From: Halomicronema hongdechloris C2206 | GTDB lineage: Bacteria > Cyanobacteriota > Cyanobacteriia > Phormidesmidales > Phormidesmidaceae | Direction of reading: 5' to 3' | Length of the DNA stretch: 32,000 nt | Assembly (NCBI RefSeq): GCF_002075285.3 | Contig: NZ_CP021983.2 | Span: 4,230,001 to 4,262,000, forward strand | Part shown: piece by piece, positions 4,314 through 17,451 of the stretch | Layout of the letters: every line of letters begins with the position of its first letter | Numbering within the stretch: position 1 is the first letter of the stretch | The notes under the pieces: generated by a model | What the model was told of the DNA's origin: nothing | What the model saw: the letters and a program-made list of their open reading frames with translations, nothing else | The model's database searches: none | Program-made: the position numbers and the translations under genes

Positions 4314-4727
4314 AGTAGGTTACAGTGAGCGGCAGGGATCCCAACGATCAATCGGGGTGAAGAATCCCCTGACATTGAGTATCGTAAGGTCAAATATCTC
4401 ATTTTAAACCGTGTCTAAGTTTAGACCTAGCGCTGTGGGCCAAGACTCTGGGCTAGAGCCGTCGTCCTTCCAGCGGATCAATGACCTGATGACGCGGTTA
4501 TTTCCAGCAGACGGCAGCCTCATCCTCAGTGCCGAAATATTTCTGGGCTTAGATCAGCCAGAGCGAGACATCTATGCCTTTCCCATGCGATCCCTGCAAG
4601 CCTCCCTATTGTTCCGGGCCAGCCAGTAGGGAACAGTCTCAATATCCCAGATTTGGCCCTGGAGTGCCCTAATGCTTGCGAGCAGCAGCTATACGAACGG
4701 GGGTTGCGATCATCGCACTTAAGCGAA

Positions 4728-5402
4728 CTATTGAATATCCTCTGGGTCAACTCCCAACTCTCGCAACTTAGCCGCGAGTTTTTCGTTGTGCTCCTCCGGG
4801 GTAGGCACCAAGTCTCCCTCGGGTGTGAAGAATCGCAGCTGCCCTTGATGACTGCCCAGGTAGAGTCCCAGCTGCTGACTCCAACGCCAACCCTGTTCAG
4901 TAGGGATAATGGGCTGATAGGTACCATCCACCAGGTGAAAGCCTTCAAACTCCAAGCTGTAAGGATCGAACCAGAAATAATCGAGGGTACGAAAGATGTC
5001 TTGGTAAATCTGCTTTTTCAGGCCGCGGTCCGTCTTAGCCGTCGACTCCGACAGCAACTCCACAATCACGTTCGGGTATTTACCATCTTCTTCCCACACC
5101 ACCCAGCTTTTGCGCGGTTTGCGCTCGGTGTCCAGTACCACGAAGAAGTCCGGGCCTCGGAAATCTTCTGACTTCCGCTGGTGTGGACTGTAGTAAATGG
5201 TGAGATTACCGAAGGCATAGAAGTCTTGGCGATCGCTCCAGAGCCGTTCCAAACTTTGGATCAACAGCAAAATCTGGCGCAGATGCAGTTCAGTTTCCAC
5301 GGGGGGTTCATCGCTGTAGAGGTCTCCAGGCGGAAAGCGTATCGCGTTCGATGATGCCTGCTCTGGTTGGGCCTGAAGGGATTCGGTAGTAGGCACAGAC
5401 AT
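4728..5402 (-). CDS. Uma2 (DUF820) family putative endonuclease
   Basis: 224 aa with the family-typical ..NLTIYY......PDFFVVLD.....SWVVWEE.GK.PNVIVELLSEST...D...K...Y......YFWFDP core, abundant in cyanobacteria. Confidence 0.8.
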   Translation of the reverse strand: MSVPTTESLQAQPEQASSNAIRFPPGDLYSDEPPVETELHLRQILLLIQSLERLWSDRQDFYAFGNLTIYYSPHQRKSEDFRGPDFFVVLDTERKPRKSWVVWEEDGKYPNVIVELLSESTAKTDRGLKKQIYQDIFRTLDYFWFDPYSLEFEGFHLVDGTYQPIIPTEQGWRWSQQLGLYLGSHQGQLRFFTPEGDLVPTPEEHNEKLAAKLRELGVDPEDIQ

Positions 5403-5429
5403 AAGCGAAAACCGTCATAGCAGTTACGC

Positions 5430-5510
5430 TCAGTGTAGCAAGGGCAGACCTGGGCACAGCCCGCTACCCATCAGGATAAAGGGAGCCCAGTCGTAGGGGG
5501 GGTCATAATC
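5430..5510 (-). pseudogene. 3' relic of a further CHAT-protease gene
   Basis: The minus strand reads DYDPPYDWAPFILMGSGLCPGLPLLH*, matching the invariant C-terminal tail HPY(Y/H)WAPFILIGNGL of both CHAT genes. Homology stops where repeat family B begins at 5514. Confidence 0.5.
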
Positions 5511-5513
5511 TAC

Positions 5514-5580
5514 GCGGTCCCCATAGAGTTTTAGGCGGGACGCAACCATTTTTTCCTGGTCCTTCTCTATGGCTGAGCCA
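5514..5580. repeat. Dispersed repeat family B, copy 1
   Basis: gcggtccccatagagttttaggcgggacgcaaccattttttcctggtccttctctatggctgagcca. Internal 8-bp inverted repeat ccatagag/ctctatgg. Related copies at 10393-10467 and 17594-17760. Confidence 0.75.
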
Positions 5581-5761
5581 GCCCCAGGCAATCTGGCTTG
5601 GCCCGTCTGTCCGCTACCGTCTTATCTCAGTTCTCAATTTTGAGGGGTGAGTTTTGAATGCAGGAACGCTCTGGCACTGAACGATTCAGCCTGATCATGC
5701 GTCGTTCAATAAGAGGGAAATGGATATTACGTCTGCCGTTCTGCACGAGTCAACGCTATCC

Positions 5762-8408
5762 TTACAAGCCATTGCCAATGAGGATAAACGGGGCCCAGTA
5801 GTAAGGATGGGCCAGGCTGTCGCCGATGGGCTGGCCGGTGACGGTGCTGACGACCTCGATGGTGCCACGCTCGCCGCCGACCAGACTCAGGTCATCGGCA
5901 ATCAGGGCCTGTTGCGCCCGCTGTAGCGCCTCTGCCTTGGAGTAGCCATTTTGCAAGGCCAGATAAAAGGCATCCATCAGCGCCTGGGTGCCGCCGTCAC
6001 TCACCTGCCACAGCGAGGCGATGGCGGCATCGGCCCCAGCTTGCTGCATCAGGTAACCAAAGCCCAGAATCTCTTCCCCGTTCCCCAAGGGCGCATCACC
6101 CACTGCCGTTTCACAGGCGCTCAGCACAATCAACTCCACATTGGGAAAGCTCCACTGCTGTTTGACGTCGGTCAACGTAGCTCTGCTACCATCGCCAAAC
6201 AAAATAAACGAGTCCTCTGGCGGCCCTGGATTGAACGCTGCATGGGTCGCGAGGTGAATGATGCTGTAGTCATCCATGTCGTACAAGATGCTGAGATTAA
6301 AGGCCTGATTCAGGCGCTTCACCGTTTGCGGAATCAACTGAGCCAGGGTGTCCACCTCAGGCCCGGCAAAGTCTAGTCCAGTGAAGGAGAGGGTGCGAGC
6401 ATCGCTGATTTCAACCTCATAGGCTCCCTCAGTAAAGGCGGCGGCTAGCACACTGGGGGTGTCAGCGGTGGGGGGATTGTCTAAGTCGCTGACGCTGGCC
6501 GCCGTAATGTTGTTGACCTGAAAGCGTTCGACCAGCCACTGGTTGCCGTCATGGAGAGCGGCTAGGGGGATGTAGCGCAGTTGCCCGTCCGGCGCATAAA
6601 TCAGAGTTGTGGCCTCAGCTTGAGCGAGATCGTTTTCTAGGGGGCGAATCAGCCAGTCGTAGAGCTGCTGGGCCGGGGTTATCGCCTCCGAGAAGGGAGT
6701 TTCCAGGGCTGAGCGCAGGTCGGCGATCGCCTGATTCAGGTCGGTGCGCGATACGGAAACCGTGCGCCGAATCGGTTCTTGATTGGCCGTGACCAGCACC
6801 AGTTCCAGGCGGTCTTCTAGCACCAGCGGATAGAGCACCACCGCGTTTTGCTCTAGATTCCGTAAATTGTCGCGCAGGTCCGTCAGCTGGCTAAGCGCTA
6901 GCGCTTCGCCCCCTGTGGTTCGTTGCAAATTGCTGACGAGTGCTCGCACCACCTCGCTCTCTAGAAAGCGAGCAAACTCTTGCCGCACGGCGGACTCTAG
7001 CTGTCGCAGCTCGATCAGGCGCTGCTGCTGCTCTGGCGTGCGCTCACTCGGGGGAATCTGAGCCAACTCAGCCCGCTCCTGCCCCAGTTCTATCAGCCGT
7101 GCCTGACTGGCCTGATACAGCTCAATTAAATCTTGCTCAGTTGGCCGCAGCGGCACTCCCGCTTCAGTGCTCTCAGTGCTGCGCACCCCCCGCAAATACT
7201 CATCCAGCTCCTGCACCTTCAGCAAATCCAGCACCCGCTGCGCCTCCAGGATGCGGTCTTGTTGCAGCAGCATATCCGCCAGTTTGCGATAGCTGCCGGC
7301 AATGCTGTCGGTAAAGGCTTGTTGGTCCTCAACGGATAACCCCACAATGTCCCCCCGCATCGCTTCCCACTGGTTCACCGATTGCTTCAGAAACACGATG
7401 GCTAACTCTGGCTCTTCTAGATTTTCCAGCACATAGCCGAGGTTGTTGAGGCTGATGGCTCTGCCCTTGCGATCGCCAATCTCCTGACGGATGGCCAGGG
7501 CGTCCTGGTAATAGCCCAGGGCCTGCTCATATTGGCCCAGGTTGTCATACACTCCCCCAATGTTGTTGAGGGTTTGGCCAACGCCTTGGCGATCGCCAAT
7601 CTCCTGGCGAATGGCGAGGGCGTCCTGGTAATAGCCCAGGGCCTGCTCATATTGGCCCAGATTGTGGTACACCGCCCCAATGTTGTTGAGGGTGACCCCT
7701 TCCCCGGCGCGATCGCCAATCTCCTGGCTGATGGCTAGGGCGTCCTGGAAGTAGCCCAGGGCCTGCTCATATTGCCCCAGGTTGTCATACACCGCCCCAA
7801 TGTTGTTGAGGGTGACCCCTTCCCCGGCGCGATCGCCAATCTCCTGGCGGATGACCAGGGCGTCCTGGTAGTAGCCCAGGGCCTGCTCATATTGGCCCAG
7901 GTTGTCATACACCGCCCCAACGTTGTTGAGGGTGACCCTTCCCCCCGGCGATCCTGAATTGTCTGCTGAATCTCCAATGCCGCTTCGTAATACTCCAGAG
8001 CTTGGGGATATTGCCCCAAGTCATCTGAGATTGCTCCCAGCCCAGTCAAGGTCTTCGCTTCGCCTTGGCGACTCTCTTCAGGAAAGGCGGCTCGCACGTC
8101 AGGGGCCTGGTAAAGGGCCAGGGCTTGTTGTAGCCGCTCCCAGGCTGCCTGATAATCACTGATGCGCGCCAAAATTCCAGAGACTCATCGAACAGGGCAT
8201 CGGCTCTTGCTTTGGCGGTCGGCAGCGCTTTCACCTTGGGCCAAGCGGTCGGCGGGTGTGAACCGAAAGCCGTTCTCGATGCTCTTTGGCTGTCCGGGGT
8301 TCTCCCGAGGGTAGCCACCATCACGGCGGTGAGGGCAAGCAATCCGAATAGCTGGCTGGGTAACGCAATGGGGGCTGGGCTCCAGTGTTTGGGGGTTGAC
8401 ATCAGCAT
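5762..8408 (-). pseudogene. Signal-peptide TPR-CHAT protease, broken into three frames as given
   Basis: Three ORFs concatenate into one protein. ORF 8046-8408 gives the leader with hydrophobic core LFGLLALTAVMVATL. ORF 7735-8172 gives the first TPR units. ORF 5762-7912 gives the remaining TPR units plus the CHAT domain (His in IHLATHAAF, Cys in VLSACETA). Frame breaks lie near 8171-8176 and 7936-7938. Confidence 0.75.
7441..7980 (-). repeat. About 4.5 near-identical 120-bp tandem repeats (40-aa TPR units)
   Basis: Units start at 7501, 7621, 7741 and 7861 with only a few substitutions each. Each encodes GDRxGEGVTLNNIGAVYxNLGQYEQALGYYQDALAIRQEI and carries a HIP1 site. Confidence 0.92.
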
Positions 8409-8438
8409 ATATGTCTCAGCCGCAAGGACTTATTCAGG
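8392..8438 (-). repeat. Conserved CHAT 5' element, copy 1
   Basis: ggggttgacatcagcatatatgtctcagccgcaaggacttattcagg is 43/47 identical to 15725-15771. Here it overlaps the annotated ATG at 8406-8408. Confidence 0.85.
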
Positions 8439-8492
8439 TTGATAGAATCTTTCATTGGCGAACTCCGAGACAACCATCATGCCGGCAGCGCC

Positions 8493-8641
8493 CTCTGCCC
8501 TGGATTCCGGGTCGCGCTGCGCTTGCCCGGAAATGACGGAAGTCTTTATCGTGATGAATGTTTGAGGCCTGAAGACAACGTACTCCCGTCATTCCCGCGC
8601 CTCGCGGAGCGTGCCCGGAGGGCGTGGCGGGAATCCAGGGG
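8493..8641. repeat. Repeat family A: two inverted hairpin units (MITE/REP-like)
   Basis: Left unit ctctgccctggattccggg...cccggaaatgacgg (8493-8539). Right unit in opposite orientation cccgtcattcccgcg...gcgggaatccagggg (8585-8641). Each unit is itself palindromic. Confidence 0.7.
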
Positions 8642-8847
8642 AATCAAATCTCGGCGACGGCTCCGAGGCGCTCTGCGTAGGGTGGCAAGTTCATTGCCGC
8701 TGCTCTCAGCAATGGTCAAGGCTCTTGGCTGGCCCACCAATCTTTCGCAAAGGTGGGCATTGAGTAGATGGAATGACGAGTATCATTAGGCCTTAGAAAA
8801 GGCAAATGCCCACACTACGAATACCCCTACTTGTTCGGCCAGGGATT

Positions 8848-8879
8848 GGTAACGCTCGCTAAGGCCACCGCTGAATTGG
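8848..8879. repeat. Repeat family C, copy 1
   Basis: ggtaacgctcgctaaggccaccgctgaattgg, near-identical to 9987-10017. Confidence 0.7.
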
Positions 8880-8995
8880 GGTGGCTCCCAGATGCGATCG
8901 CATGGTTGTCGGCTAGCATTTAGATCAAGACGGATATTCAAGCTGCCACCCCTTTGGGGGCTTACCACAGGACAGCGCTAATTCTGGGAACTTCG

Positions 8996-9359
8996 ATGGC
9001 GTTACCCTCTACCGACTCAACCACAGACACCATCGCCATCATGCTGGATCGGGAGGGTGGAGCACTTTCATGCCTGTCCAGGGTGACCATTTGGCTCCCC
9101 AGGCGCCGGAGGAAGCTGCGTCCAACCAGTGATATCGATTTACTGATATGTGGTGGAACATCTCAACGATCAGCGCAAGATCGACTTGATCACCTGTATC
9201 CGGGATACCTTGGATGACCTCATGGTGGCTAAAGATATTGTGGTGGCGACCCGCCAAGAAATAGCTGACTATCGCGACACGATTGGCCACGTGATTCATA
9301 CCGTCTTGAAGGAAGGCAAAGTCTTGTATGACAGCCGGCGCGATCGCCCAGGAAACTAA
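8996..9359 (+). pseudogene. MNT-type nucleotidyltransferase (partner of the HEPN gene), frame-disrupted
   Basis: RPTSDIDLLI (9122-9148) is in one frame. The continuation VVEHLNDQRKIDLITCIRDTLDDL...VLKEGKVLYD starts one nt out of frame at 9150. A FGS motif (9090-9098) sits in yet another frame relative to the DxD. Confidence 0.6.
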
Positions 9360-9741
9360 ACGATGGTTGGCCTACGCACAACAAGATATGGATGTCGCCA
9401 GCGAACTGGCAGCAGCTGGAAAAGGGTATACCCATGCCATCTGTTACCACGCGCAACAGGCCGCAGAGAAAGCCATCAAAGCCGGACTAATCTTTGCTCA
9501 GATTGACTTTCCCTTCGTGCATGACTTAACGGTCTTAAAAAATCTGCTGCCAAAGGATTGGCAGACTCGTCAAGATCCAACCAATCTAAACACTTTGACC
9601 AGTTGGGCAACGGCATCCAGATATCCGGGGATTGCTCCTGACCCTACTGAGCAGGATGCCTTACAAGCTCGGCAAGAGGCGGAAAGAATTATGGGTTTGA
9701 TTCGGGCAGATGTCAGCCAACGAGGACTCACCTTGATTTAA
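9328..9741 (+). CDS. HEPN domain protein (MNT/HEPN pair)
   Basis: 137 aa with ..WLAYAQQDMDVA..L......Y.HAICYHAQQAAEKAIKAGL and ..ASRYPG, the classic HEPN helical pattern. Overlaps the 3' end of the MNT reading frame. Confidence 0.8.
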   Translation: MTAGAIAQETKRWLAYAQQDMDVASELAAAGKGYTHAICYHAQQAAEKAIKAGLIFAQIDFPFVHDLTVLKNLLPKDWQTRQDPTNLNTLTSWATASRYPGIAPDPTEQDALQARQEAERIMGLIRADVSQRGLTLI

Positions 9742-9853
9742 GAGCACTCTGCCTAGCTTTCGAAACTGGCGGCTACGCCAATGACCATCACAGTGAGGAC
9801 CATTGGCCAGTGGCAAAGTCCTCTGCCTGGATTCCGGGTGCCCGGAATGACGG
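9741..9853. repeat. Repeat family D copy 1, ending in a family A unit
   Basis: agagcactctgcctagctttcg...ggcggctacgccaatgaccatcac..gtgaggac...ctctgcctggattccgggtgcccggaatgacgg. Homologous to 17452-17598. Confidence 0.65.
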
Positions 9854-9986
9854 ACATCGTTTTCGCGGTTACACTCTCCCAGACCTCTGCAACCAGGACA
9901 TTTTGCCTGTAGTGAGCTGGTAGTGAACGTCAGGGGACTACCCCCTTATTGCCTGAGCCCCTTGGCAGGGCTTGTCGGTGAGGGGT

Positions 9987-10017
9987 GGTAACGCTCGCTA
10001 AGGCCACGCTTAATTGG
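9987..10017. repeat. Repeat family C, copy 2
   Basis: ggtaacgctcgctaaggccacgcttaattgg. Confidence 0.7.
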
Positions 10018-10021
10018 ATAG

Positions 10022-10150
10022 CTCGGGGTGCTCACCCGAGGGGATTTCGTTCCCCTCGGACTCCGACGACCAGGGCGTTCCGCCGCCCTGGACCCCGCGG
10101 AAGGGATGGCCGATCTGCCGTTCAAGATCGCGTCGCATCGGCAGAGATGG
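10022..10150. other. Cluster of consecutive GC-rich hairpins
   Basis: Stems: ctcggg/cccgag (10022-10040); ccgagggga/tcccctcgg (10036-10059, 9 bp, shares bases with the previous stem); ccagggcg/cgccctgg (10070-10091, 8 bp); ctgccg/cggcag (about 10106-10140). Confidence 0.5.
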
Positions 10151-10157
10151 CGAGAGA

Positions 10158-10310
10158 TCTTTCCCCCTTATTCCCTATCCCCTCTTCCCTCTTCACCCTT
10201 CGACTGCGCTCAGGGCAAGCTCTTCACTCTTCTTCGCACGGGCATAGCCCTACACACTCTTCACGACACATCCCCCTCCCACCCCATCACCCCTCTCCCC
10301 CTCTCCCCAT
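10158..10310 (+). repeat. G-depleted C/T-rich tract
   Basis: Includes tctttcccccttattccctatcccctcttccctcttcaccctt. 10261-10310 contains a single G. A purine-rich counterpart lies at about 17341-17425. Confidence 0.8.
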
Positions 10311-10365
10311 CACATTCCCGCGCCTCGCGCAGCGTGCCCGAAGGTCGTAGCGGGAATCCGGAGGG
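10311..10365. repeat. Repeat family A unit
   Basis: cacattcccgcgcctcgcgcagcgtgcccgaaggtcgtagcgggaatccggaggg, close to 8585-8641. Confidence 0.7.
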
Positions 10366-10392
10366 CTAGGCTCAGAGCGCTCTGCTTAAAGG

Positions 10393-10467
10393 CTGGGACA
10401 CAACCACTTTTATCCGGTCCCCATAGATTTTTCTCTGGGACGCAGCCATATTTAGGCGGTTAGGCCA
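10393..10467. repeat. Repeat family B, copy 2
   Basis: gggacacaaccacttttatccggtccccatagatttttctctgggacgcagccatatttaggcgg. Confidence 0.7.
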
Positions 10468-10624
10468 AACTAGGGGCCAGTGGGGGCACTCTCTAGACTC
10501 CCAGGTAAAACTCAACACTGATGATGAATGCATAGGTTAGGTAGAGGCTCTGAGGCAATATAGAATCCGGGCAAGTGCCTCACCAAATGGTGCGAATCGC
10601 AATTATCACCCGATTTGACACCCC

Positions 10625-12650
10625 ATGACGAAACGTTCTTTGCTTCAACGCACAGCCGTCCCTGTTGGGCCTGGTGGTCTGCGTTAGCGGGCGGCATCAA
10701 CTGGGGGCAGGGGTCAGCGCCCCGACTAGGCTGGCCCAAACCGAGTCTGCCGAGTTGTTTTACCGCGTCGACGGAGAGCCGATTCCCCTGCAGTTGCAAG
10801 CAGATGCGATCGCAGTGGTCTTCACTGAGCCACCGGCGGCTCGGGGTCATCCCCCCATCCCCCTCTACCGGCGACTCCAGGCCGACCTACAGGGCACTCG
10901 GGGCGACGCCGTCACCGTGCACCCCGTGGGCACCGACTACGCCATCGTCACCCTGCCCAGGGGCAGTCGCTCTAGTCGCAGCACCCTGATCGAACGGGTG
11001 CAACGGCCCTACGTCGATGCCATTTTGCCTGTCCTCAGTTGTTGCGATCGCAACGAGCAGATTCTGCTGCCCAACGAAATCATCGTCAGTTTTGAGCCAG
11101 ATACTACTCCGGCCCAGCGGCAAGTGATCCTGGCCGCCCAGGGGCTCACCGCCATTCGACCGCTGCAATTCAGTGACGACCGGGTCCTGGCGCGGCTTAT
11201 AGAACTGGATCACGACACCGCCGTATTGACTGCCACCGAGCGGCTGCATGCCACAACCGGGGTGCGATCGGCCACTCCCAATTTCATCCAGGTACGGGCA
11301 CCCCTGGAGCCGCCGATGCAACCGCCCCTCTCGCCGTCACCGGCCCAGTTTGCCGCCCGATCCCGTCGTCCGGCTAATCTGAGGACCCTAGCCTGGTACC
11401 TAGATAGCACCAGGCTGCACCCCAACCTAGAGAACCGGGGGGTGAAGGCCCCGGCCGCTTGGACCCTGGGCAGCCGGGGCGAGGGCATTACGGTGGCGGT
11501 GCTGGACACCTTCACCCAATGGGATCATCCGGCATTGCAAACCAATACCTATGAGCTGCCCGCCCCATGTCCGTCGGCTTGGCCCGAGAAACTCGCGGCT
11601 GGGACTTTGTCGACGATGACCCCGATACCCGCATCGAAGCCGACGAGCTGGCCATTTTGCGGCCCCCCTTTCAGAGCACGTTTACTTTGTCCGATGCAGC
11701 CCTGCTGGCGCAGCATGACCCCTGGGTCGCCCGGCTCAGACAGGACCATCCAACGGCAACAGATGCCCAGATTGCCGCCCATATTCGCCGACCAGATCCA
11801 GGCGCAGGTGGTCAATGAGTTTCATGGCACCCAGGTGGCCGGGGTGATTGCCGCCCATGGCCAGAGCGATACCGCCTTCACCGGCGTGGCCCCGGCGGCC
11901 AGGATCTTGCCCGTCCGGATTGGGGATATTTCCAGTGGCCCCATGCTGGCGGCCAGCGTTGAGGCGATTGCCTACGCGGCTGAGCGCGGAGCCGATGTGA
12001 TCAATATGAGCTGGGGCATGCTGCCCGCCACCGAGATCGCGGCTGTGATCACCCAGGCGCTGGAAGACAATCCCGACCTGGTGATAGTGGCGTCGAGTGG
12101 CAATTTTGGCGACGGGGAGGTCTCGTTTCCGGCCAGCCTACCGGCGGTGGTGGCCGTGGGGGCCTCGACCCTAAATGGCCATCGGGCTCCCTATAGTAGC
12201 TTTGGGCCAGGGCTGACGCTGGTAGCCCCCGGCGGGGTGATTCAGTCGCACCCAACCAGTGGCATCTTAACCACGGGGGGAACGGTGACCCCGGGATTTT
12301 GGCAGGGGATGCCGCTACCGACGCAGCCCTGGAGTTGGACCCAAGATCCCCAGGGAACCTACATTTGGACCCAGGGCACCTCCTTTTCCTCCCCCATCGT
12401 CGCGGGCATTGTGGCGTTGATGCAGAGTGCCGATCAGGATCGGAGCTTAAGTCGCGATCGCATCGTTGAGTTACTCACCGCAGCCGCCAGCCATGGGCCA
12501 CTGACCCTGACGGATGAGGAGCGAGACCGCTATCAAACCCTGGCGACCCAGACCAACACCCCAGCCACGGCACCAGCGCTGACCTACTTTTTCGGCAGCG
12601 GGTTGGTGGATGCCGCCGAGGCGGTGCGCCTGGTGCAGGCAACGGACTAA
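10625..12650 (+). CDS. S8 (subtilisin-like) serine peptidase with leader and I9-like propeptide; reading frame apparently disturbed at three points
   Basis: Catalytic Asp (ITVAVLDT), His (HGTQVAGVIAA) and Ser (GTSFSSPIVAGIVALM) all lie in the long ORF 10665-12650. The leader MTKRSLLQRTAVPV (ATG 10625) is one nt out of frame. The family motif RGWDFVDDDPD appears only in the alternative frame 11567-11790. Confidence 0.8.
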
Positions 12651-15600
12651 AGGCCATTGCCGATGAGGATAAACGGTGCCCAGTGGTAGGGATGCTCCAA
12701 CCCAGTAGTCGCCAGAGGCTGGCCATCGCGGGATTCGATCACAATGGAGGCCCGCGACGCCGCCAGGCGGGTTTCGGTTTCTTCGTCGTAGAGCAGGCTG
12801 AGCTGGGCCTGACGCAGGGCTTCGGCTTTGGTCAGTTCCCCAGAGGCCAGTAGCTCATAGAAGCGCTGCATCAGCAGGCTGGTGCTGTCGTCGTTGACAG
12901 ACCACAGCGAGGCAATCACCGTCTCGGCCCTGCCCTTCTCTAAAAAGTAAGAACTGATGCCGGCAATCTCGGTACCATCGCCTGCCGGTCCCCCTAAGGC
13001 GGTCTGACAGGCAGAGAGCACCACTAAGTGCAGATTACTCAACCGTCGATGCATGGCCTCGATATCGTCAATCTTCAGGGGTTCCCCATTGCCCAAGAGA
13101 ATAAAAGACTCTTCGGCGCGACCTGGTACGAAGGCGGCATGGGTGGCCAGGTGCAGCACTCGATGGCCACGTACCTGAGCTTTCAGGGTATCCAGGGTAA
13201 AGTCATTGTTGAGAAACACCTGGCCCGGATAGATACCCGCCGGGTCAGTCGCATCACTGCGAATGATGGCATCCAATTCGGCATCGACCGCCGGCAGGGG
13301 ATTGAAGTCGGCCACAGCCTGCGTCAGCCCCAGCCCCAACACCTGGGATTGCTCAATGTCAGCAAGGCGGTCTTCTGTATCGGTCAGCCCCGGCGCCAGC
13401 ACCGTGGAGATGCGGTAGCGCTCCAGCAGATACTGCTCCCCGTCGTAGAGGGCCGCCATCGGGATGTAGCGGGTAACGCGGTCATTGACGAAGATCAGAT
13501 GATCGATGTCGTTGGCGGCCAGTTCTGTTTCCAAGGGCCGAATGATCCAGTCGTAGAGTTGCTGGCTGGTGGCTTGCAGCTCTGTCAGGGTGCCAGGATT
13601 GCCCGTCTTCAGCAACTCCCCGAAGCGCTGCACCGTACTCGCCAGTTCCCCCTGGGACACTGGCACCTCCACACTGCCGATGACGTTGCCGGCCGCGGCC
13701 CACACCAGCCACAGCTTGTCTTCCAGCACGAAGGGATAAATCAGCACCGCCTGTTCACCATCCTGGGTATAGGCATTCAGCAGTTCCTCCGCTTCGCCGC
13801 TGAGATTATCGGGATCTACAAAGACCTCATCCTCGGCCCGGTTCGCTCGAACGGCAGCCTCAAACTCCTCGACTTGCTGGTTGTACTGGGCGGTGAGGGC
13901 CTCAAGCTGGTCGTAAAGGCTGTCCAGTTCGGCGCAGGCGCTGCCTTCACAGGCGATGACTTCGCCACCGAGGGCGACCAGGCTACCGTGGGCGTCGATG
14001 ACGTCCTGTTCCGGGTCAGTGTACTGCAAGTCGCCACCGGTCCAGGTGGCGCGGGTGGTTTCAGTAAACTCGCGCAGTTCTTCAAGTTTGAGCAGGTCAA
14101 GGACTTGTTGGGCTTCTGGGATGCGGCCCTGTTCGAGCAGGAGGTCGGCCAGGAGGCGGTAGTCATCAGCGATGGTGTTGGTATAAGCTTCCTGCACTTC
14201 AGTGTCGAGACCCTGAATGTTGTCACGAATAGATTCTCGAATCTGCACTAGGGCTTTGAGGAAGATGATGGCCAGCTCCGGCTGACCTTGGTCATTAAGA
14301 ACGCGACCTAGGTTACTGAGAGCGTCTCCTTCCCCAGCAATATCTTCGATGTCGCGGGTGACGGCTAGCTGCTGCTCGTAAAAGTTGATGGCCCGCTGGG
14401 GCTGACCCAACAGGCGGTGGGTATCACCCAAAGAGCCTAGCAACTGTCCCTCCTCAGCCCGATTTCCCGCCTGGCGAACGGCCACCAGCCGCTGCTGATA
14501 CAGGTCAATCGCCCGTTGATGCTGTGCTTCGGCGGCTTGCTGATACTGGGGAAAAACGCTGTTCAAATCATCCAGATTGGCTCCCTCCCTCGCCTGAGCG
14601 AAAATCTCCTGGACGATAGCGATGTAGCGCTCCAAGATGCTCTCCGCCTGCCTGAGTTGTTCGATGTCTTGCTCGGAGATTTGTGTCCCGCCTAGACCTT
14701 GTCCGTCCTCCACTAGCGCCAGAAACTCATCGATAATTGCCAGCGCTTCCTCTGCCAGAAGTATGCTTTCCTGATAGTTCTGGAGTCCGATATGGGTCTG
14801 AACCAAGCTGGATAGGGCAATAACTTCATCTGGAAGACTGTCGAGTTCACGGGCAATGGCCAGGTATTGTTCGTAGTATCTCAGGGCTTGTTGATAGTCT
14901 CCCAATTTGAAGTAAACATTACCAAGCTTGCCTAGATTTTGGCCTTCCTGTTGGCGGTTATTGAGATCGCTGGTAATGGCCAGCCGTTGCTCGTAAACAT
15001 CAATGGCCTGCTCATAGTCCCCCAGGGAAAAGTAGGCCAGGCCCAGGTTGCCCAGAGCATTCGCCTCCCCCTGACGGTTGCCAAGCTTGCGATAAAGGTC
15101 TAGGACCTGCTGCCAAGACTGTAGCGCCTCACGAAACTGGCTGACTCGAAACTGCTGGAGGCCAATGTCGAGGAGCCTATCAGCCTCCACATTTGCCTGA
15201 CTTGCATCGCTAAGGATGGGAGCCGCTTGCTCCGGTGAGGTGTCAACTACTGTAAGGGAATAGCGCCCACGGGAGCTTTCGTCGAAACCGTTCGCCCAAA
15301 TGGTATAGATACCATCAGTAGGCAGCGTTAGGGTAATAAATGAGTGATAGTTGCCTGCCTCAGTATCAATATCATTGTTTCTGGCGAGTTCATCGCCTTG
15401 GTTATCTAAGATCAGCAAAAACGTATCAAACTCAACGCTTTCTAAAGTGATGGCAATAGTCTGTCCTGCGTTGCCGTCGAAGGTGTAGGTGTCATATAGG
15501 CTGCCATCGTTGAGAGTGTCGTCGCCTGCTTCTAAAACGCCTTCAACCTCTAGCAGCACAGTCGTGGTTTCGTCAGCTTGCTTAGTTTGCCTCATCTGAC

Positions 15601-15715
15601 GACTCAGGGGCTGAGGCTCCTGAGCCACGCCTGGGGCTTGCATTGCAGGGATGATGAGGGCTGTGGCCGTAAAGAAACCGAGCAGCTTGGCAGAGTAGAG
15701 CATGAGCGCAGTCAT
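12647..15715 (-). CDS. Secreted PPC-TPR-CHAT protease (intact, 1022 aa)
   Basis: Signal peptide MTALMLYSAKLLGFFTATALIIPAMQAPGVAQ. PPC-like domain at aa ~55-157 (..YTFDGNAGQTIAITLES.EFDTFLLILDNQGDELARNND...GIYTIWANGF...GRYSLTV). About seven TPR units. CHAT domain with His (LHLATHAAF) and Cys (VLSACQTA). Tail HPYHWAPFILIGNGL. Confidence 0.88.
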   Translation of the reverse strand: MTALMLYSAKLLGFFTATALIIPAMQAPGVAQEPQPLSRQMRQTKQADETTTVLLEVEGVLEAGDDTLNDGSLYDTYTFDGNAGQTIAITLESVEFDTFLLILDNQGDELARNNDIDTEAGNYHSFITLTLPTDGIYTIWANGFDESSRGRYSLTVVDTSPEQAAPILSDASQANVEADRLLDIGLQQFRVSQFREALQSWQQVLDLYRKLGNRQGEANALGNLGLAYFSLGDYEQAIDVYEQRLAITSDLNNRQQEGQNLGKLGNVYFKLGDYQQALRYYEQYLAIARELDSLPDEVIALSSLVQTHIGLQNYQESILLAEEALAIIDEFLALVEDGQGLGGTQISEQDIEQLRQAESILERYIAIVQEIFAQAREGANLDDLNSVFPQYQQAAEAQHQRAIDLYQQRLVAVRQAGNRAEEGQLLGSLGDTHRLLGQPQRAINFYEQQLAVTRDIEDIAGEGDALSNLGRVLNDQGQPELAIIFLKALVQIRESIRDNIQGLDTEVQEAYTNTIADDYRLLADLLLEQGRIPEAQQVLDLLKLEELREFTETTRATWTGGDLQYTDPEQDVIDAHGSLVALGGEVIACEGSACAELDSLYDQLEALTAQYNQQVEEFEAAVRANRAEDEVFVDPDNLSGEAEELLNAYTQDGEQAVLIYPFVLEDKLWLVWAAAGNVIGSVEVPVSQGELASTVQRFGELLKTGNPGTLTELQATSQQLYDWIIRPLETELAANDIDHLIFVNDRVTRYIPMAALYDGEQYLLERYRISTVLAPGLTDTEDRLADIEQSQVLGLGLTQAVADFNPLPAVDAELDAIIRSDATDPAGIYPGQVFLNNDFTLDTLKAQVRGHRVLHLATHAAFVPGRAEESFILLGNGEPLKIDDIEAMHRRLSNLHLVVLSACQTALGGPAGDGTEIAGISSYFLEKGRAETVIASLWSVNDDSTSLLMQRFYELLASGELTKAEALRQAQLSLLYDEETETRLAASRASIVIESRDGQPLATTGLEHPYHWAPFILIGNGL

Positions 15716-15724
15716 CCAAAGCTT

Positions 15725-15792
15725 GGGGTTGACACCAGGATATATGTCTCGGCGGCAAGGACTTATTCAGGTTCAGGCAAGCTTTGATAAAG
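15725..15792 (-). repeat. Conserved CHAT 5' element, copy 2
   Basis: ggggttgacaccaggatatatgtctcggcggcaaggacttattcaggttcaggcaagctttgataaag. Ends 10 nt upstream of the CHAT2 ATG (15713-15715). Confidence 0.85.
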
Positions 15793-15830
15793 AGACACAG
15801 ATGCCAGGCAGCCTGACGTACTCATATCAT

Positions 15831-16193
15831 TCAGGCGACGGATGAGATCTCGTTACCTGTGCCAAAATCCGTAAACTGTCGCACCTCCGGCTCATGGAAC
15901 GCCAGCACAATATCTTGCTTCGGCACGCCTAGATCCACAAGTTGATTAGCAATCCCTGTTTCAGTGCCATCATGCTGAATCCAGATTTGGCCCCCTTTGA
16001 TGTCGAGGTGAAGAATGCAGCCAAAATCCCGTTTGGTGCCTCGCCATCCCACATACAGCAGTTGATAGTGATCGCGCTCAGTATCAAACAGCGTCTGTAC
16101 CTCATACTCTGGCCAGCGGTGCTGGGCGCTGACCTGCTCAGCCCGCTGCGAAATTAATTGCTGGATATATTGCCGATACAGCTCTACAGCCAT
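15831..16193 (-). CDS. xisI: XisI family protein
   Basis: 120 aa with DHYQLLYVGWRGTKRDFGCILHLDIKGGQIWIQHDGTETGIANQLVDLGVPKQDIVLAFH, a textbook XisI pattern. Confidence 0.9.
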   Translation of the reverse strand: MAVELYRQYIQQLISQRAEQVSAQHRWPEYEVQTLFDTERDHYQLLYVGWRGTKRDFGCILHLDIKGGQIWIQHDGTETGIANQLVDLGVPKQDIVLAFHEPEVRQFTDFGTGNEISSVA

Positions 16194-16595
16194 TTTGCGA
16201 TCGCCTCCTGCTTAACATCGTAAACCAGTAACCTCAGCTGATACTTTTCTACTGCTGTGGCAATAAATTCGGCGTTGAAAAAAGCTTTCGTAGACGGCTA
16301 GCCGCACGGCTAAATAGAGATGTCGATTGGGCTCAACTACTGCCAAAGCATCGCGATAGTTGAGAAACTGTCCCAAGGCAGTGTGAAATTCTGACACATT
16401 CGACGGGCTGAGAAAGCTTTTCACCTCTACCGCAATTTTGCGATCGCCCCAATCTGCCGCTAATAGCTTTTCGGCTGCCAGATCAATCTCAAAATCTACA
16501 TCATCGACGTTGATTTCATAGGGATCTGCCGTAATTTGCCACCCCTCCTTTTCCAGGGCAGTGCAGATGACCTAATGAAACCGATCCCTTACCAT
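16184..16595 (-). pseudogene. xisH: XisH family gene with an in-frame stop and a frameshift
   Basis: From ATG 16593-16595: MVRDRFH-TAG(16572-16574)-VICTALEKEGWQITADPYEINVDDVDFEIDLAAE...KIAVEVKSFLS...YESFF. An A6 run on the + strand (16278-16283) then shifts the frame. The corrected tail NAEFIATAVEKYQLRLLVYDVKQEAIAKWL* overlaps the xisI ATG as expected. Confidence 0.75.
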
Positions 16596-16741
16596 ATGCA
16601 GGAACTCATCTGGCAGATTAGTGTCCAGTGACTTATTCACCGTTGTCTATGCCCATGCGATCCCGAACCCAACCGCACGCTTCCCACGGACGCTGGAGGG
16701 TATCGCTAAGATATCAACATGTTTGTTGTCTTTAATCAGCG

Positions 16742-16978
16742 ATGACCACCCTGCCCCGGACTGAACCCATCACCCTGGAACTCCCTGCCCTGCCTAGGGC
16801 AACCCTGGATGAGTTGTACCACTTTCTGCAATATCTTCAGTTCAAATATCAGGTGGATCTGGAATCGGGCCTGAAAACCCTGGAAGATGAGATGGACAAC
16901 TTTGATGGCGATGCGGCCCTGGCAGAACCCGGAGCAATCTCTCTAGCCCATCTGAAACAGGAATTGGGGTTGGAGTGA
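16742..16978 (+). CDS. Putative antitoxin of the RelE/ParE pair (family not recognised)
   Basis: 78-aa acidic protein. Its TGA (16976-16978) overlaps the GTG start of the toxin gene in a GTGA junction. Confidence 0.6.
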   Translation: MTTLPRTEPITLELPALPRATLDELYHFLQYLQFKYQVDLESGLKTLEDEMDNFDGDAALAEPGAISLAHLKQELGLE

Positions 16979-17292
16979 CGTATCAAGTTTTCATCCAGCC
17001 CGCCGCCCAAAGACGTTTAAAGAAGCTGCCTGTTCCAGTGCAGCGAAAACTGGTGACCCTCATTGAGGGTCTGGCAGAGGAGCCGAGACCGTCTGGTTGC
17101 AAAAAACTGAAAGGACGCGAAAATCGCTATCGGGTGCGCTCGGGCGATTATCGGGTGATCTACAGCATTGAGGACACTGCCCTGATTATTCGGATCATCA
17201 AAGTGGGGCACCGACGGCATCCGGAAAGGTTTCAGGATATTCAATCGTCAACTTTAGGGACATCGCAGTTAAATCATTCCATCCTGGGTTGA
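16975..17292 (+). CDS. RelE/ParE family toxin
   Basis: KLKGRENRYRVRSGDYRVIYSIEDTALIIRIIKVGHRR is the RelE/StbE core. About 20 extra C-terminal residues run into a repeat element. Confidence 0.8.
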   Translation: MTYQVFIQPAAQRRLKKLPVPVQRKLVTLIEGLAEEPRPSGCKKLKGRENRYRVRSGDYRVIYSIEDTALIIRIIKVGHRRHPERFQDIQSSTLGTSQLNHSILG

Positions 17293-17351
17293 TCGTAGCC
17301 GATACTGCTGGGTCGTAGGAGCTTATTCACGTTTAGACAAGCCTTGAAAAG
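17286..17351 (-). repeat. Conserved CHAT 5' element, orphan copy 3
   Basis: gggttgatcgtagccgatactgctgggtcgtaggagcttattcacgtttagacaagccttgaaaag aligns in the same orientation over its whole length to 15725-15792 (shared blocks tcaaccc, cttattca, agacaagc/aggcaagc, ttgaaaag/ttgataaag). No CHAT gene follows it. Confidence 0.6.
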
Positions 17352-17451
17352 GGGGAGAAGTTTTGAATTTTGAGTGGAGGGTAAAGGAAGAATGAGAGGG
17401 GCAGGGACAGGGAACCAGGACGTGGCTGAGGCTTTCGGGCAGAATGGAACT

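What the first reader, a model, noticed from the sequence alone, without database searches (positions are those of the whole stretch)
5762..15715. Two signal-peptide TPR-CHAT proteases bracketing a pro-subtilase: candidate exported protease module
CHAT2 (12647-15715, minus strand) reads: signal peptide, PPC-like beta-sandwich, about seven TPR units, helical linker, then a caspase-like CHAT domain with an intact His/Cys dyad. CHAT1 (5762-8408) has the same plan without the PPC domain and the same C-terminal tail, HPY(Y/H)WAPFILIGNGL. Between them, on the other strand, is an S8 subtilase with its own hydrophobic leader and an I9-like propeptide. The CHAT proteases with known roles that I can recall (HetF, the type III-E TPR-CHAT Csx29) act in the cytoplasm. 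I know of no assigned function for an exported PPC-TPR-CHAT next to an exported subtilase. The module sits in an island with TA modules, Uma2 and XisHI, and shows family turnover (a relic and an orphan 5' element). Two readings are possible: a zymogen-activation cascade in which the subtilase processes the CHAT protein, or an exported effector system. Both are hypotheses.
Basis: partly seen in the sequence, partly recalled or inferred. Interest (0 to 1): 0.7.

Follow-up and report, generated by a model that had tools for sequence, protein, structure and literature searches.

The report
Exported TPR-CHAT plus subtilase protease cluster
This stretch of the Halomicronema hongdechloris chromosome carries a local, possibly damaged copy of a gene cluster conserved across cyanobacteria, in which caspase-like TPR-CHAT proteases and a subtilisin-type protease, all with export signals, sit side by side; nobody appears to have described or tested this pairing.

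Summary
The domain calls are right. CHAT2 (12647-15715, minus) is an intact leader-PPC-TPR-CHAT protein with a His/Cys dyad. The gene between the CHAT genes is a pre-pro-subtilase with an intact Asp/His/Ser triad. But the deposited sequence breaks two of the three genes. CHAT1 needs two frameshifts to be read. The S8 gene has three, one cutting off its signal-peptide start and a compensating pair leaving 76 residues out of frame inside the annotated ORF. All are 1-bp indels in G/C-rich runs with no later decay, and the assembly is an old 454/PacBio/36-bp hybrid, so real versus artefact is about 50/50. The neighbourhood hypothesis passes: 26 of 45 cyanobacterial loci of this S8 family have a CHAT gene within 10 kb, 12 within 600 bp, and the three closest relatives have TPR-CHAT genes on both sides of the S8. 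Leaders are conserved family-wide. The cluster often includes a Tat-exported C14-DUF4384 caspase, an exported trypsin, and an ECF-sigma-like/DUF1822/caspase-CHASE2 sensor set. The claim that known CHAT proteins are cytoplasmic is outdated: DdvA is a periplasmic TPR-CHAT and is CHAT2's best structural match. Verdict: a real, undescribed variant of caspase-like protease systems; mechanism inferred only.

The parts
12647..15715 (-). CHAT2: intact leader-PPC-TPR-CHAT protein (1022-aa ORF; database start is Met5 at 15703, 1018 aa, ASC73065.1)
   Evidence: ORF; Pfam PPC, TPR, CHAT; 100% match P0121; AF2 model
15620..15703 (-). CHAT2 Sec-type leader MLYSAKLLGFFTATALIIPAMQAPGVAQ
   Evidence: 11-residue KD maximum 2.18; homologous leaders in 96/115 family members; disordered in model. 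No SignalP available.
15242..15562 (-). CHAT2 PPC-type beta-sandwich (aa 52-158)
   Evidence: Pfam PF04151, 31.5 bits, above cutoff; eight strands in AF2 model, pLDDT about 88
13766..15208 (-). CHAT2 TPR array and helical linker (aa 170-650)
   Evidence: Pfam TPR families; AF2 helices; LGN, DdvA and separase fold matches
12656..13750 (-). CHAT2 CHAT (caspase-fold) domain; His859 at 13139-13141, Cys903 at 13007-13009
   Evidence: Pfam CHAT E 4e-62; dyad columns invariant in 32-sequence alignment; coordinates
10625..12650 (+). S8 pre-pro-subtilase gene as reconstructed (673 aa after three 1-bp corrections). The annotated ORF starts at 10674 (658 aa, ASC73064.1). Triad: Asp in 11493-11510, His in 11820-11837, Ser in 12375-12392.
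10650..10665 (+). S8 frameshift 1: separates ATG-MTKRSLLQRTAV from SLLGLVVCVSG..., removing start codon and n-region from the leader
   Evidence: Three-frame reading; homolog leaders; KD 0.64 versus 2.85
11558..11792 (+). S8 segment that is out of frame in the annotated ORF, bounded by compensating frameshifts near 11560 (CCCGCCCC) and 11790 (CGCC). Its ancestral +1 frame encodes GWDF...DPDTRIEADELAILRPPFQSTFTLSD...
   Evidence: MAFFT with 9 homologs; 53-60% identity in ancestral frame versus 56-62% elsewhere; corresponds to an ordered 4-helix insertion in the homolog model
5762..8408 (-). CHAT1: leader-TPR-CHAT gene without PPC, broken by two frameshifts (near 8150 and near 7925). Repaired it is 882 aa with an intact dyad (HLATHA 6239-6256, LSACET 6107-6124) and is 35% identical to CHAT2.
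7317..8036 (-). 120-nt TPR-unit DNA repeats in CHAT1: the reported family is five overlapping 240-nt copies at 120-nt spacing, three of them 84-100% alike; frameshift 2 lies inside this array
   Evidence: the repeat finder D1 and D2
5457..5567 (-). Relic of the 3-prime end of a third CHAT gene (...DYDPPYDWAPFILMGSGL)
   Evidence: tblastn E 2.7e-4 against the last 45 aa of CHAT2; repeat D4
8392..8455 (-). 64-nt 5-prime element of CHAT1 (paired with 15725-15788)
   Evidence: 84% identity although the proteins are 35% identical; absent from 81 related loci
15725..15788 (-). 64-nt 5-prime element of CHAT2
8590..10364 (+). Inserted MNT(broken)/HEPN cassette between CHAT1 and S8, bracketed by 52-nt direct repeats (8590-8641, 10313-10364; 88%)
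   Evidence: Repeat D5; HEPN Pfam; MNT frames. In L083 the TPR-CHAT and S8 are directly divergent.

Best explanation
The region is one copy, reduced and possibly damaged, of a conserved cyanobacterial cluster of exported proteases. The core is a Sec-exported pre-pro-subtilase of one specific S8 family flanked by one to three Sec-exported TPR-CHAT (caspase-fold) proteases. In other genomes the cluster also carries a Tat-exported Peptidase_C14-DUF4384 caspase homolog and/or an exported trypsin-like protease. It is often contiguous with a DUF928-like secreted protein, a membrane caspase-CHASE2 protein, DUF1822 and a sigma-like protein, which together form the EACC2-type set described by Kaur et al. 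2021.

Most likely mode of action (inferred, not shown): the proteins work outside the cytoplasm (periplasm or thylakoid lumen) as a multi-protease module. The subtilase matures by removing its prodomain. The serine and caspase-fold proteases then process each other or a shared target, with the TPR arrays acting as the substrate- or ligand-binding platform. In full clusters the proteolytic event is coupled to the CHASE2 sensor and sigma-like factor, much as proposed for the periplasmic TPR-CHAT anti-sigma factor DdvA.

In this genome only S8 and two TPR-CHAT genes are present. In the deposited sequence S8 and CHAT1 carry five 1-bp frameshifts. So either only CHAT2 is functional (very recent inactivation) or the assembly has indel errors and all three genes are intact.

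What is shown: domain architecture, catalytic residues, conserved leaders, gene linkage. What is inferred: export compartment, who cleaves whom, biological role.
For: Linkage:
- 26/45 cyanobacterial loci of this S8 family have a CHAT ORF within 10 kb and 12 have one within 600 bp.
- CHAT ORFs cover 16-24% of bases lying 1-7.5 kb from the S8 gene.
- Even assuming 100 CHAT genes per 7-Mb genome, P is about 3e-5 for the 10-kb count and 2e-8 for the immediate-neighbour count.
- The three closest S8 relatives (49-53% identity) have TPR-CHAT genes on both sides of the S8.
- From the CHAT side, the loci of PPC-TPR-CHAT homologs P0176 and P0166 contain the S8, and that of P0123 contains trypsin instead.
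- The trypsin partners form one family at 43-57% identity.

Export:
- Sec-type leaders in 96/115 TPR-CHAT and 69/93 S8 homologs.
- 23/29 S8-linked full-length CHAT ORFs have leaders.
- 12/12 C14-DUF4384 proteins have a KRR[QHN]F[LI]QF Tat motif.
- Trypsins have Sec or lipoprotein leaders.
- The PPC domain is typical of secreted protease precursors.

Activity:
- The dyad is present in 29/29 linked CHAT ORFs.
- The S8 triad is invariant.
- The pro-form fold is supported.

Precedents:
- DdvA, a periplasmic TPR-CHAT, is the top fold match.
- A CHAT to C14 activation cascade is documented for SAVED-CHAT/PCaspase.
- The EACC2-caspase/ECF sigma/DUF1822 systems are described.
Against: - No experiment bears on export, cleavage or phenotype.
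- Signal peptides were judged by hydropathy and motif only; no SignalP or TatP was available.
- 19/45 S8 loci show no CHAT within the available flanks. Five of these are a distinct paralog context with a 2,000-aa protein upstream, and several others are short contigs.
- The null model used assumed CHAT gene numbers, not counted ones.
- In this window the sensor/sigma genes, C14 and trypsin are absent.
- Two of the three genes are frame-disrupted as deposited.
- Such islands also collect Uma2, TA and transposase genes, so part of the clustering could reflect a shared variable-island habitat.
- DdvA's own proteolytic activity has not been demonstrated.
Confidence: 0.6

Rival explanations
1. Decaying relic: in this strain the module is non-functional. 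The five frameshifts are real; S8 has lost its export signal and an ordered subdomain, CHAT1 is a pseudogene, and only CHAT2 survives as an orphan. This concerns the state of this copy and is compatible with the family-level explanation.
For: - Frame breaks.
- The neighbouring XisH has an in-frame stop plus a frameshift, which a homopolymer error cannot produce.
- MNT is broken, and a third CHAT gene survives only as a 110-nt relic.
- Broken and intact genes alternate along the island, while psaB, psaL, ffh, ribBA, argC, rnr, argB and CHAT2 are intact.
- The scrambled S8 segment corresponds to a confidently folded 4-helix insertion in the homolog model.
Against: - All five lesions are 1-bp indels in G/C-rich short runs, with no stop codons or larger deletions.
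- The out-of-frame S8 segment is as conserved as the rest of the gene (53-60% versus 56-62%).
- Repairs give proteins of exactly homolog length (673 and 882 aa).
- A conserved non-island gene (26313-27264) shows the same kind of split.
- The assembly mixes 17x 454, 14x early PacBio and 36-bp Solexa reads.
Confidence: 0.5
2. Free-acting secreted exoproteases: the TPR-CHAT, S8, trypsin and C14 proteins are independent extracellular enzymes for nutrient scavenging, matrix remodelling or attack on competitors, co-located only because they are co-regulated. There is no cascade and no signalling.
For: - Export signals on all of them.
- The PPC domain and subtilase prodomain are hallmarks of secreted degradative proteases.
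- Copy number and composition vary between genomes.
Against: - TPR-CHAT relatives with known roles (separase, Csx29, DdvA) are tightly regulated, highly specific proteases or sensors, not bulk degraders.
- The cluster is recurrently contiguous with a CHASE2 membrane sensor, DUF1822 and a sigma-like gene.
- The Tat-exported C14 protein with DUF4384 is not a typical scavenging enzyme.
Confidence: 0.2
3. Coincidental neighbours: S8 and TPR-CHAT genes are unrelated cargo of the same hypervariable islands, which are rich in Uma2, TA modules, XisHI and transposases. Their adjacency has no functional meaning.
For: - The islands do accumulate Uma2, ParE/RelB, Fic, HEPN/MNT and IS elements.
- TPR-CHAT is a very large multi-copy family, with 2252 hits among the scored candidates.
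Against: - Adjacency holds across many genera (Calothrix, Rivularia, Nostoc, Mastigocoleus, Coleofasciculus, Leptolyngbya, Leptothoe, Kaiparowitsia, Xenococcaceae).
- In 18 of the 26 loci with a CHAT ORF the nearest one is on the S8 strand, and gaps in the closest pairs are 89-580 bp.
- P is at most 3e-5 under a deliberately generous null.
- The trypsin family replaces or joins the S8 in the same position.
Confidence: 0.07

Closest known systems
DdvA, transmembrane anti-sigma factor of Myxococcus xanthus (PDB 8rot, 8rw5; PMC11506125)
   Same: Extracytoplasmic TPR-CHAT with a canonical His-Cys dyad. It is the best PDB fold match of CHAT2 (E 8e-12, about 900 aligned columns). It is linked to an ECF sigma factor, as the full cyanobacterial clusters are linked to a sigma-like gene.
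   Different: DdvA is membrane-anchored, with a cytoplasmic zinc anti-sigma domain and one TM helix. CHAT2 has only a cleavable-type leader followed by a PPC domain. DdvA has no subtilase, C14 or trypsin partner, its distribution is reported as narrow (Myxococcota), and its protease activity is unproven. Sequence similarity to CHAT2 is undetectable by phmmer.
EACC2-caspase systems with ECF sigma factor and DUF1822 (Kaur, Iyer, Burroughs, Aravind 2021, PMC8195603)
   Same: The caspase(CHAT-like)-CHASE2 protein, DUF1822 and a roughly 470-aa sigma-like protein sit directly beside the S8/TPR-CHAT genes in at least ten related loci.
   Different: That description does not mention subtilisin and, as far as I could find, does not mention exported TPR-CHAT or C14-DUF4384 partners. 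None of these three genes is present in the window. I did not verify that the 470-aa protein is a sigma factor; Pfam and NCBIfam gave no hit.
SAVED-CHAT to PCaspase cascade of the Haliangium type III-B CRISPR/CBASS locus (bioRxiv 10.1101/2023.06.23.546230)
   Same: A CHAT protease and a Peptidase_C14-type caspase are encoded together, and the CHAT enzyme activates the caspase by cleavage. This gives a working precedent for a CHAT plus C14 protease cascade in bacteria.
   Different: That cascade is cytoplasmic, triggered by a cyclic oligonucleotide through a SAVED domain, and has no TPR, leader peptide or serine-protease partner.
Csx29 (TPR-CHAT) of type III-E CRISPR 'Craspase', and eukaryotic separase
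   Same: TPR or helical array N-terminal to a CHAT caspase-fold domain with a His/Cys dyad. Separases are among CHAT2's fold matches.
   Different: Both are cytoplasmic or nuclear and regulated by Cas7-11/RNA or by securin. There are no cas genes in the window, and neither has export signals, a PPC domain or a subtilase partner.
Pro-subtilisins with N-terminal propeptides (pro-subtilisin E 3whi, fervidolysin 1r6v, Tk-SP 3afg)
   Same: The S8 family model aligns over propeptide plus catalytic domain (TM-score normalised to target up to 0.82). The catalytic Asp/His/Asn/Ser are invariant.
   Different: The cyanobacterial family has two tandem beta-alpha-beta prodomain modules and a family-specific ordered 4-helix insertion between the catalytic Asp and His. 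It is genomically tied to TPR-CHAT genes.

Membership tests
CHAT domain (Pfam PF12770), caspase-hemoglobinase fold | Profile match above the gathering score | tested here: met
   CHAT2 210.7 bits and the CHAT1 fragment 210.6 bits, against a cutoff of 24
CHAT domain (Pfam PF12770), caspase-hemoglobinase fold | Catalytic His and Cys in the conserved H-x-A-T-H and S-A-C-x-T motifs | tested here: met
   HLATHA and LSACQT in CHAT2, HLATHA and LSACET in CHAT1; columns invariant in 32 sequences; 29/29 S8-linked CHAT ORFs
TPR-CHAT architecture (separase / Csx29 / DdvA type) | Helical TPR array N-terminal to the CHAT domain, with overall fold similarity | tested here: met
   AF2 model; Foldseek top hits DdvA 8rw5 and 8rot, then separases
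DdvA-like TPR-CHAT anti-sigma factors | N-terminal cytoplasmic zinc anti-sigma domain plus a single TM helix upstream of the periplasmic TPR-CHAT | tested here: not met
   CHAT2 begins with a 28-aa leader followed at residue 52 by the PPC sandwich, so there is no cytoplasmic domain
DdvA-like TPR-CHAT anti-sigma factors | Adjacent cognate ECF sigma factor gene | tested here: not met
   No sigma-like ORF in the window. A sigma-like gene is present in related full clusters.
Type III-E CRISPR Craspase (Csx29) | Association with Cas7-11 (gRAMP) and a CRISPR array | tested here: not met
   The ORF map and Pfam of window neighbours show psaB, psaL, ffh, Uma2, HEPN, XisI, ParE, ribBA and so on, with no cas genes. 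Repeat search of 4500-17500 found no CRISPR-like array.
Peptidase S8 (subtilase) | Profile match and catalytic Asp-His-Ser triad with oxyanion Asn | tested here: met
   PF00082 at 150 bits; D, H, N and S motifs present in the window gene and invariant in 29 family members
Peptidase S8 (subtilase) | Continuous reading frame through the catalytic domain | tested here: not met
   76 residues between Asp and His are out of frame relative to all homologs. Whether this is a real mutation or an assembly error is unresolved.
Pro-subtilases with N-terminal propeptide (I9 / fervidolysin-type) | Beta-alpha-beta propeptide domain N-terminal to the catalytic domain | tested here: met
   Fervidolysin_NPro-like at 22.8 bits, cutoff 21; two such modules in the homolog model; fold matches to 3whi, 1r6v and 3afg covering the propeptide. 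The Inhibitor_I9 profile itself did not hit.
PPC (bacterial pre-peptidase C-terminal) domain PF04151 | Profile match above cutoff and a beta-sandwich fold | tested here: met
   31.5 bits against a cutoff of 25.9; eight-strand sandwich at aa 52-158. Its position is atypical (N-terminal, after the leader).
Sec-exported proteins | N-terminal signal peptide with n-, h- and c-regions | tested here: inconclusive
   The hydropathy and motif test is passed by CHAT2 (2.18), CHAT1 (2.45), repaired S8 (2.85) and most homologs. The annotated S8 fails (0.64). No SignalP-type predictor and no experimental data were available.
EACC2-caspase / ECF sigma / DUF1822 system (Kaur et al. 2021) | Caspase-CHASE2 protein, DUF1822 protein and sigma factor encoded together | tested here: not met
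   tblastn of all three families against the window gave no hits. They are present next to the S8/TPR-CHAT genes in L014, L015, L024, L029, L031, L034, L039, L041, L080 and L082.
Catalogued anti-phage defence systems (PADLOC-DB 2.0) | Specific profile match to a named system component | tested here: not met
   Only generic TPR, subtilase and caspase models hit

The most novel reading that the evidence does not exclude
Filamentous and other cyanobacteria run a caspase-type proteolytic cascade outside the cytoplasm. Sec-exported TPR-CHAT proteases, a Tat-exported C14-DUF4384 caspase homolog and an exported subtilase or trypsin activate one another in the periplasm (or lumen). They either execute envelope-directed cell death or filament fragmentation, or generate the signal read by the CHASE2 sensor that controls a sigma-like factor. 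This would be a periplasmic counterpart of the cytoplasmic CHAT to PCaspase and Craspase pathways.
Probability: 0.25. Interest if true: 0.8.

Novelty: new variant of a known kind. Interest (0 to 1): 0.5.

Why it matters
Bacterial caspase-fold proteases (Craspase, SAVED-CHAT/PCaspase, orthocaspases) have so far been understood as cytoplasmic immune or cell-death enzymes. The only characterised extracytoplasmic TPR-CHAT, DdvA, is a membrane-tethered anti-sigma factor whose protease activity is unproven.

The cluster described here contains soluble exported TPR-CHAT proteins, a Tat-exported C14 protease and exported serine proteases, and it is conserved across many cyanobacterial genera. If it works as a unit, it would extend caspase-like cascades to the cell envelope. 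It would also give a concrete genetic handle on the long-standing but poorly mechanistic reports of programmed cell death and filament fragmentation in cyanobacteria.

On the practical side, the public S8 protein ASC73064.1 / WP_137455179.1 contains a 76-residue out-of-frame stretch that annotation did not flag, because the wrong frame happens to stay open.

Tried and rejected
- PDB sequence search with full CHAT2 found only TPR proteins, and the CHAT domain alone found nothing even at E 10. Only the fold search was informative.
- NCBIfam and PADLOC gave no specific family or system for any component.
- Look-ups of the other H. hongdechloris TPR-CHAT paralogs (P0131, P0158) and of P0127 returned nothing, so I could not check whether the genome has a second, complete cluster.
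- The proteome supplement of PMC6416890 is stored only up to locus tags well before XM38_0402xx, so expression of these genes could not be checked.
- The 64-nt 5-prime element was searched in 81 related loci with no match, so I dropped the idea of a family-wide regulatory motif.
- I considered a type III-E CRISPR association and rejected it because there are no cas genes or arrays.
- I considered local low coverage as the cause of the frameshifts. The alternation of broken and intact genes argues against it, but a frameshift in a conserved gene outside the island keeps assembly error open.
- Literature searches for exported or secreted CHAT, TPR-CHAT in cyanobacteria, and DUF4384 found no description of this cluster. 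The library lacks most subscription journals, so absence is not proof.

Full report
**Source and context.** The window is from the Halomicronema hongdechloris C2206 chromosome. The S8 and CHAT2 proteins match ASC73064.1 and ASC73065.1 at 100% on a 5,577,845-bp contig. The region of interest is an island between psaB-psaL-ffh and ribBA-argC. The island also holds Uma2, a broken MNT with an intact HEPN, XisI, an XisH fragment and a ParE toxin.

**What is really there: CHAT2.** CHAT2 (12647-15715, minus strand) is a single intact ORF. Pfam gives PPC (aa 74-139), many TPR families and a full-length CHAT domain (E 4e-62). An AlphaFold2 model built from 32 homologs (pLDDT 77, pTM 0.71) shows these parts:
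- a disordered leader and linker, residues 1-49
- an eight-strand sandwich, 52-158
- helical repeats and a linker, 170-650
- an alpha/beta CHAT domain, 656-1018

The dyad is His859/Cys903, and both columns are invariant in the family alignment.

**What is really there: CHAT1.** CHAT1 is not one gene as deposited. It is read from three frames (8046-8408, 7735-8172, 5762-7912). The breaks lie at a GCGCGC repeat near 8150 and a G-run near 7925, inside an array of near-identical 120-nt TPR repeats. Repaired, it is an 882-aa leader-TPR-CHAT protein with an intact dyad. It is only 35% identical to CHAT2, so the two are old paralogs.

**What is really there: the S8 gene.** The S8 ORF looks intact, and RefSeq annotates it as a 658-aa protein. 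Alignment with nine homologs shows that 76 residues between the catalytic Asp and His are out of frame. The homologous GWDFVDDDPDTRIEADELAILRPPFQSTFTLSD... sequence is in the +1 frame at 11567-11818, bounded by 1-bp shifts near 11560 and 11790. A third shift near 10655 detaches the ATG-MTKRSLLQRTAV n-region from the rest of the leader, so the annotated protein begins MVCVSGRHQ and has no hydrophobic leader. Three single-base repairs give a 673-aa pre-pro-subtilase; homologs are 672-675 aa.

**Are the frameshifts real?** Evidence for assembly artefact:
- All five lesions are 1-bp indels in G/C-rich short runs.
- There are no stop codons or larger lesions.
- The out-of-frame S8 segment is as similar to homologs (53-60%) as the rest of the protein (56-62%).
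- The assembly is a hybrid of 17x 454, 14x early PacBio and 36-bp Solexa reads.
- A conserved gene outside the island (26313-27264; homologs are single proteins of 330-390 aa) is split in the same way.

Evidence for real decay:
- XisH carries an in-frame stop as well as a frameshift.
- A third CHAT gene survives only as a 110-nt relic.
- Broken and intact genes alternate along the island.
- About 20 kb of other coding sequence in the window is intact.

I cannot decide and put it at about 50/50. If the lesions are real, they are very recent, and they would remove export and an ordered four-helix subdomain from the subtilase.

**Is the S8-CHAT neighbourhood more than chance?** A profile of the S8 family retrieved 45 full-length cyanobacterial loci and 33 distant S8 loci, 32 of them from other phyla. 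With a CHAT HMM built from the homologs, 26 of the 45 family loci have a CHAT ORF within 10 kb and 12 have one within 600 bp. Among the distant loci, only L065, which is itself cyanobacterial, has one. CHAT ORFs occupy 11%, 22%, 24%, 16% and 9% of bases in successive distance bins out to 10 kb. Under a deliberately generous null of 100 CHAT genes per 7-Mb genome, the binomial P is 3e-5 for the 10-kb count and 2e-8 for immediate adjacency. With 15 genes it is 5e-23. These gene numbers are assumptions, not counts.

All neighbours tested by Pfam are TPR-CHAT, and one (Leptothoe, L026) is PPC-TPR-CHAT directly downstream of the S8. The three closest relatives of the window's S8 reproduce the bracket arrangement:
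- L082: TPR-CHAT, S8, C14-DUF4384, 473-aa protein, DUF1822, CHASE2, 240-aa protein, TPR-CHAT, all on one strand.
- L083 (Leptolyngbya CCY15150): a divergent TPR-CHAT upstream of the S8, as with CHAT1.
- L084 (Kaiparowitsia): TPR-CHAT, then S8, then a convergent TPR-CHAT, as with CHAT2.

From the CHAT side, the loci of PPC-TPR-CHAT homologs contain the S8 (L080, L081) or a trypsin-family protease instead (L079). The trypsins of four loci are one family at 43-57% identity.

**The larger cluster.** Clustering of all flank ORFs and a gene-order map show a recurrent set: a sigma-like protein of about 470 aa with no profile hit, DUF1822, a caspase(CHAT-like)-CHASE2 membrane protein, a roughly 232-aa protein with weak DUF928 similarity, one to three TPR-CHAT genes, the S8, and Peptidase_C14-DUF4384. 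The first three correspond to the EACC2-caspase / ECF sigma / DUF1822 systems of Kaur et al. 2021 (PMC8195603), which does not mention subtilisin. None of these extra components is present in the window, even as relics. The 52-nt direct repeats at 8590 and 10313 suggest the MNT/HEPN cassette was inserted between a once directly divergent CHAT1-S8 pair.

**Export.** No signal-peptide predictor was available. A crude hydropathy test finds a hydrophobic N-terminal segment in 96/115 TPR-CHAT and 69/93 S8 homologs. The leaders visibly share MKR or MRH n-regions and A-x-A-Q ends. Further points:
- 23/29 full-length S8-linked CHAT ORFs have such leaders.
- All 12 C14-DUF4384 proteins carry a KRR[QHN]F[LI]QF twin-arginine motif.
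- Six of the seven ~232-aa proteins in the DUF928-like cluster, and the trypsins, have Sec or lipoprotein leaders.
- The CHASE2 proteins have the usual topology: about 380 cytoplasmic residues, a TM segment, the CHASE2 domain, then three TM segments.

The full cluster therefore spans the envelope and includes at least three exported protease classes. The compartment (periplasm versus thylakoid lumen) is unknown.

**Comparison with known systems.** The best structural match of CHAT2 in the PDB is DdvA (8rw5, 8rot), followed by separases. CHAT2 is not a DdvA-type protein, because it lacks the cytoplasmic zinc domain and the TM helix. The SAVED-CHAT to PCaspase pathway shows that a CHAT enzyme can activate a C14 caspase by cleavage, which is a useful precedent for TPR-CHAT plus C14-DUF4384. 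The S8 homolog model (pLDDT 87) has two prodomain-like modules and matches unprocessed pro-subtilisin E, fervidolysin and ProN-Tk-SP. PADLOC and NCBIfam give nothing specific. I found no paper describing the exported TPR-CHAT/S8 cluster.

**Mechanism.** The linkage, the export signals and the active sites are shown. Everything else is inferred. The best-supported reading is an extracytoplasmic multi-protease module: the subtilase self-matures, serine and caspase-fold proteases process one another or a shared target held by the TPR arrays, and in full clusters this couples to the CHASE2 sensor and the sigma-like factor. The interchange of S8 and trypsin partners fits a requirement for 'a serine protease' rather than for one enzyme. 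Independent scavenging exoproteases, or mere island co-residence, are less likely but not excluded.

**Verdict.** This is a new variant of known caspase-like protease systems, of moderate interest, and its state in this strain is uncertain.

Noticed in passing
window 26313-27264 (+): A conserved cyanobacterial gene (N-terminal LapA-like TM segment, acidic C-terminus ending VYDADYRVIIPP) is split into two overlapping ORFs in different frames near 26740-26780. Homologs P0241-P0252 are single proteins of 330-390 aa that match both frames. This is a frameshift in a gene outside the island.
   Followed up: yes
window 16190-16740 (-): XisH is a pseudogene. It has an in-frame stop at about residue 8 (MVRDRFH*VICTALEKEGW...) plus a frameshift near the C-terminus. 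The adjacent XisI (15831-16193) is intact.
   Followed up: partly
window 8950-9741 (+): The MNT-type nucleotidyltransferase antitoxin is spread over at least three frames, while its HEPN partner (9328-9741) is intact. This is an odd state for a toxin-antitoxin pair. The cassette is bracketed by 52-nt direct repeats (8590-8641 and 10313-10364, 88% identical) that contain an internal palindrome.
   Followed up: partly
window 8392-8455 and 15725-15788 (weak third copy 17285-17348): A 64-nt element at the 5-prime ends of CHAT1 and CHAT2 is 84% identical although the proteins are only 35% identical. It contains a possible sigma-70-like TGAATA-17 nt-CATATA. It was not found in 81 related loci.
   Followed up: partly
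window 5480-5620, 10380-10520, 17560-17760: A short dispersed repeat (core GGCGGGACGCAACCATTTTT...CCCCATAGAnTTTTAGGC) occurs near both island borders and upstream of the S8 gene, with two copies at 17.6 kb. It could be a MITE- or REP-like element.
   Followed up: partly
window 7317-8036 (-): The CHAT1 TPR region is built from 120-nt DNA repeat units up to 96% identical, which implies recent repeat expansion or homogenisation. Such arrays are also hard to assemble from short reads.
   Followed up: no
L005:10789-13179, L014:15669-17966, L082:12282-14672 and nine other loci: Every Peptidase_C14-DUF4384 protein beside these clusters has a canonical twin-arginine signal (KRR[QHN]F[LI]QF...AQ), which implies Tat export of a folded orthocaspase-like protease.
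   Followed up: partly
L084:1-4020: In Kaiparowitsia the cluster lies next to a 1465-aa trypsin-NACHT-HEAT-TIR protein and a Trypco1 adaptor, which are components of known conflict systems.
   Followed up: no
L001, L003, L008, L013, L036: A second paralogous context of the same S8 family in Rivulariaceae lacks CHAT genes. It has a conserved upstream protein of about 2,000-2,100 aa and a roughly 350-aa protein instead. Calothrix parasitica and Rivularia T60 carry both types.
   Followed up: no
window 10674-12650 (+): The public protein record for this S8 (ASC73064.1 / WP_137455179.1, 658 aa) includes the 76-residue out-of-frame stretch. The wrong frame has no stop codon, so annotation pipelines did not flag it.
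   Followed up: yes
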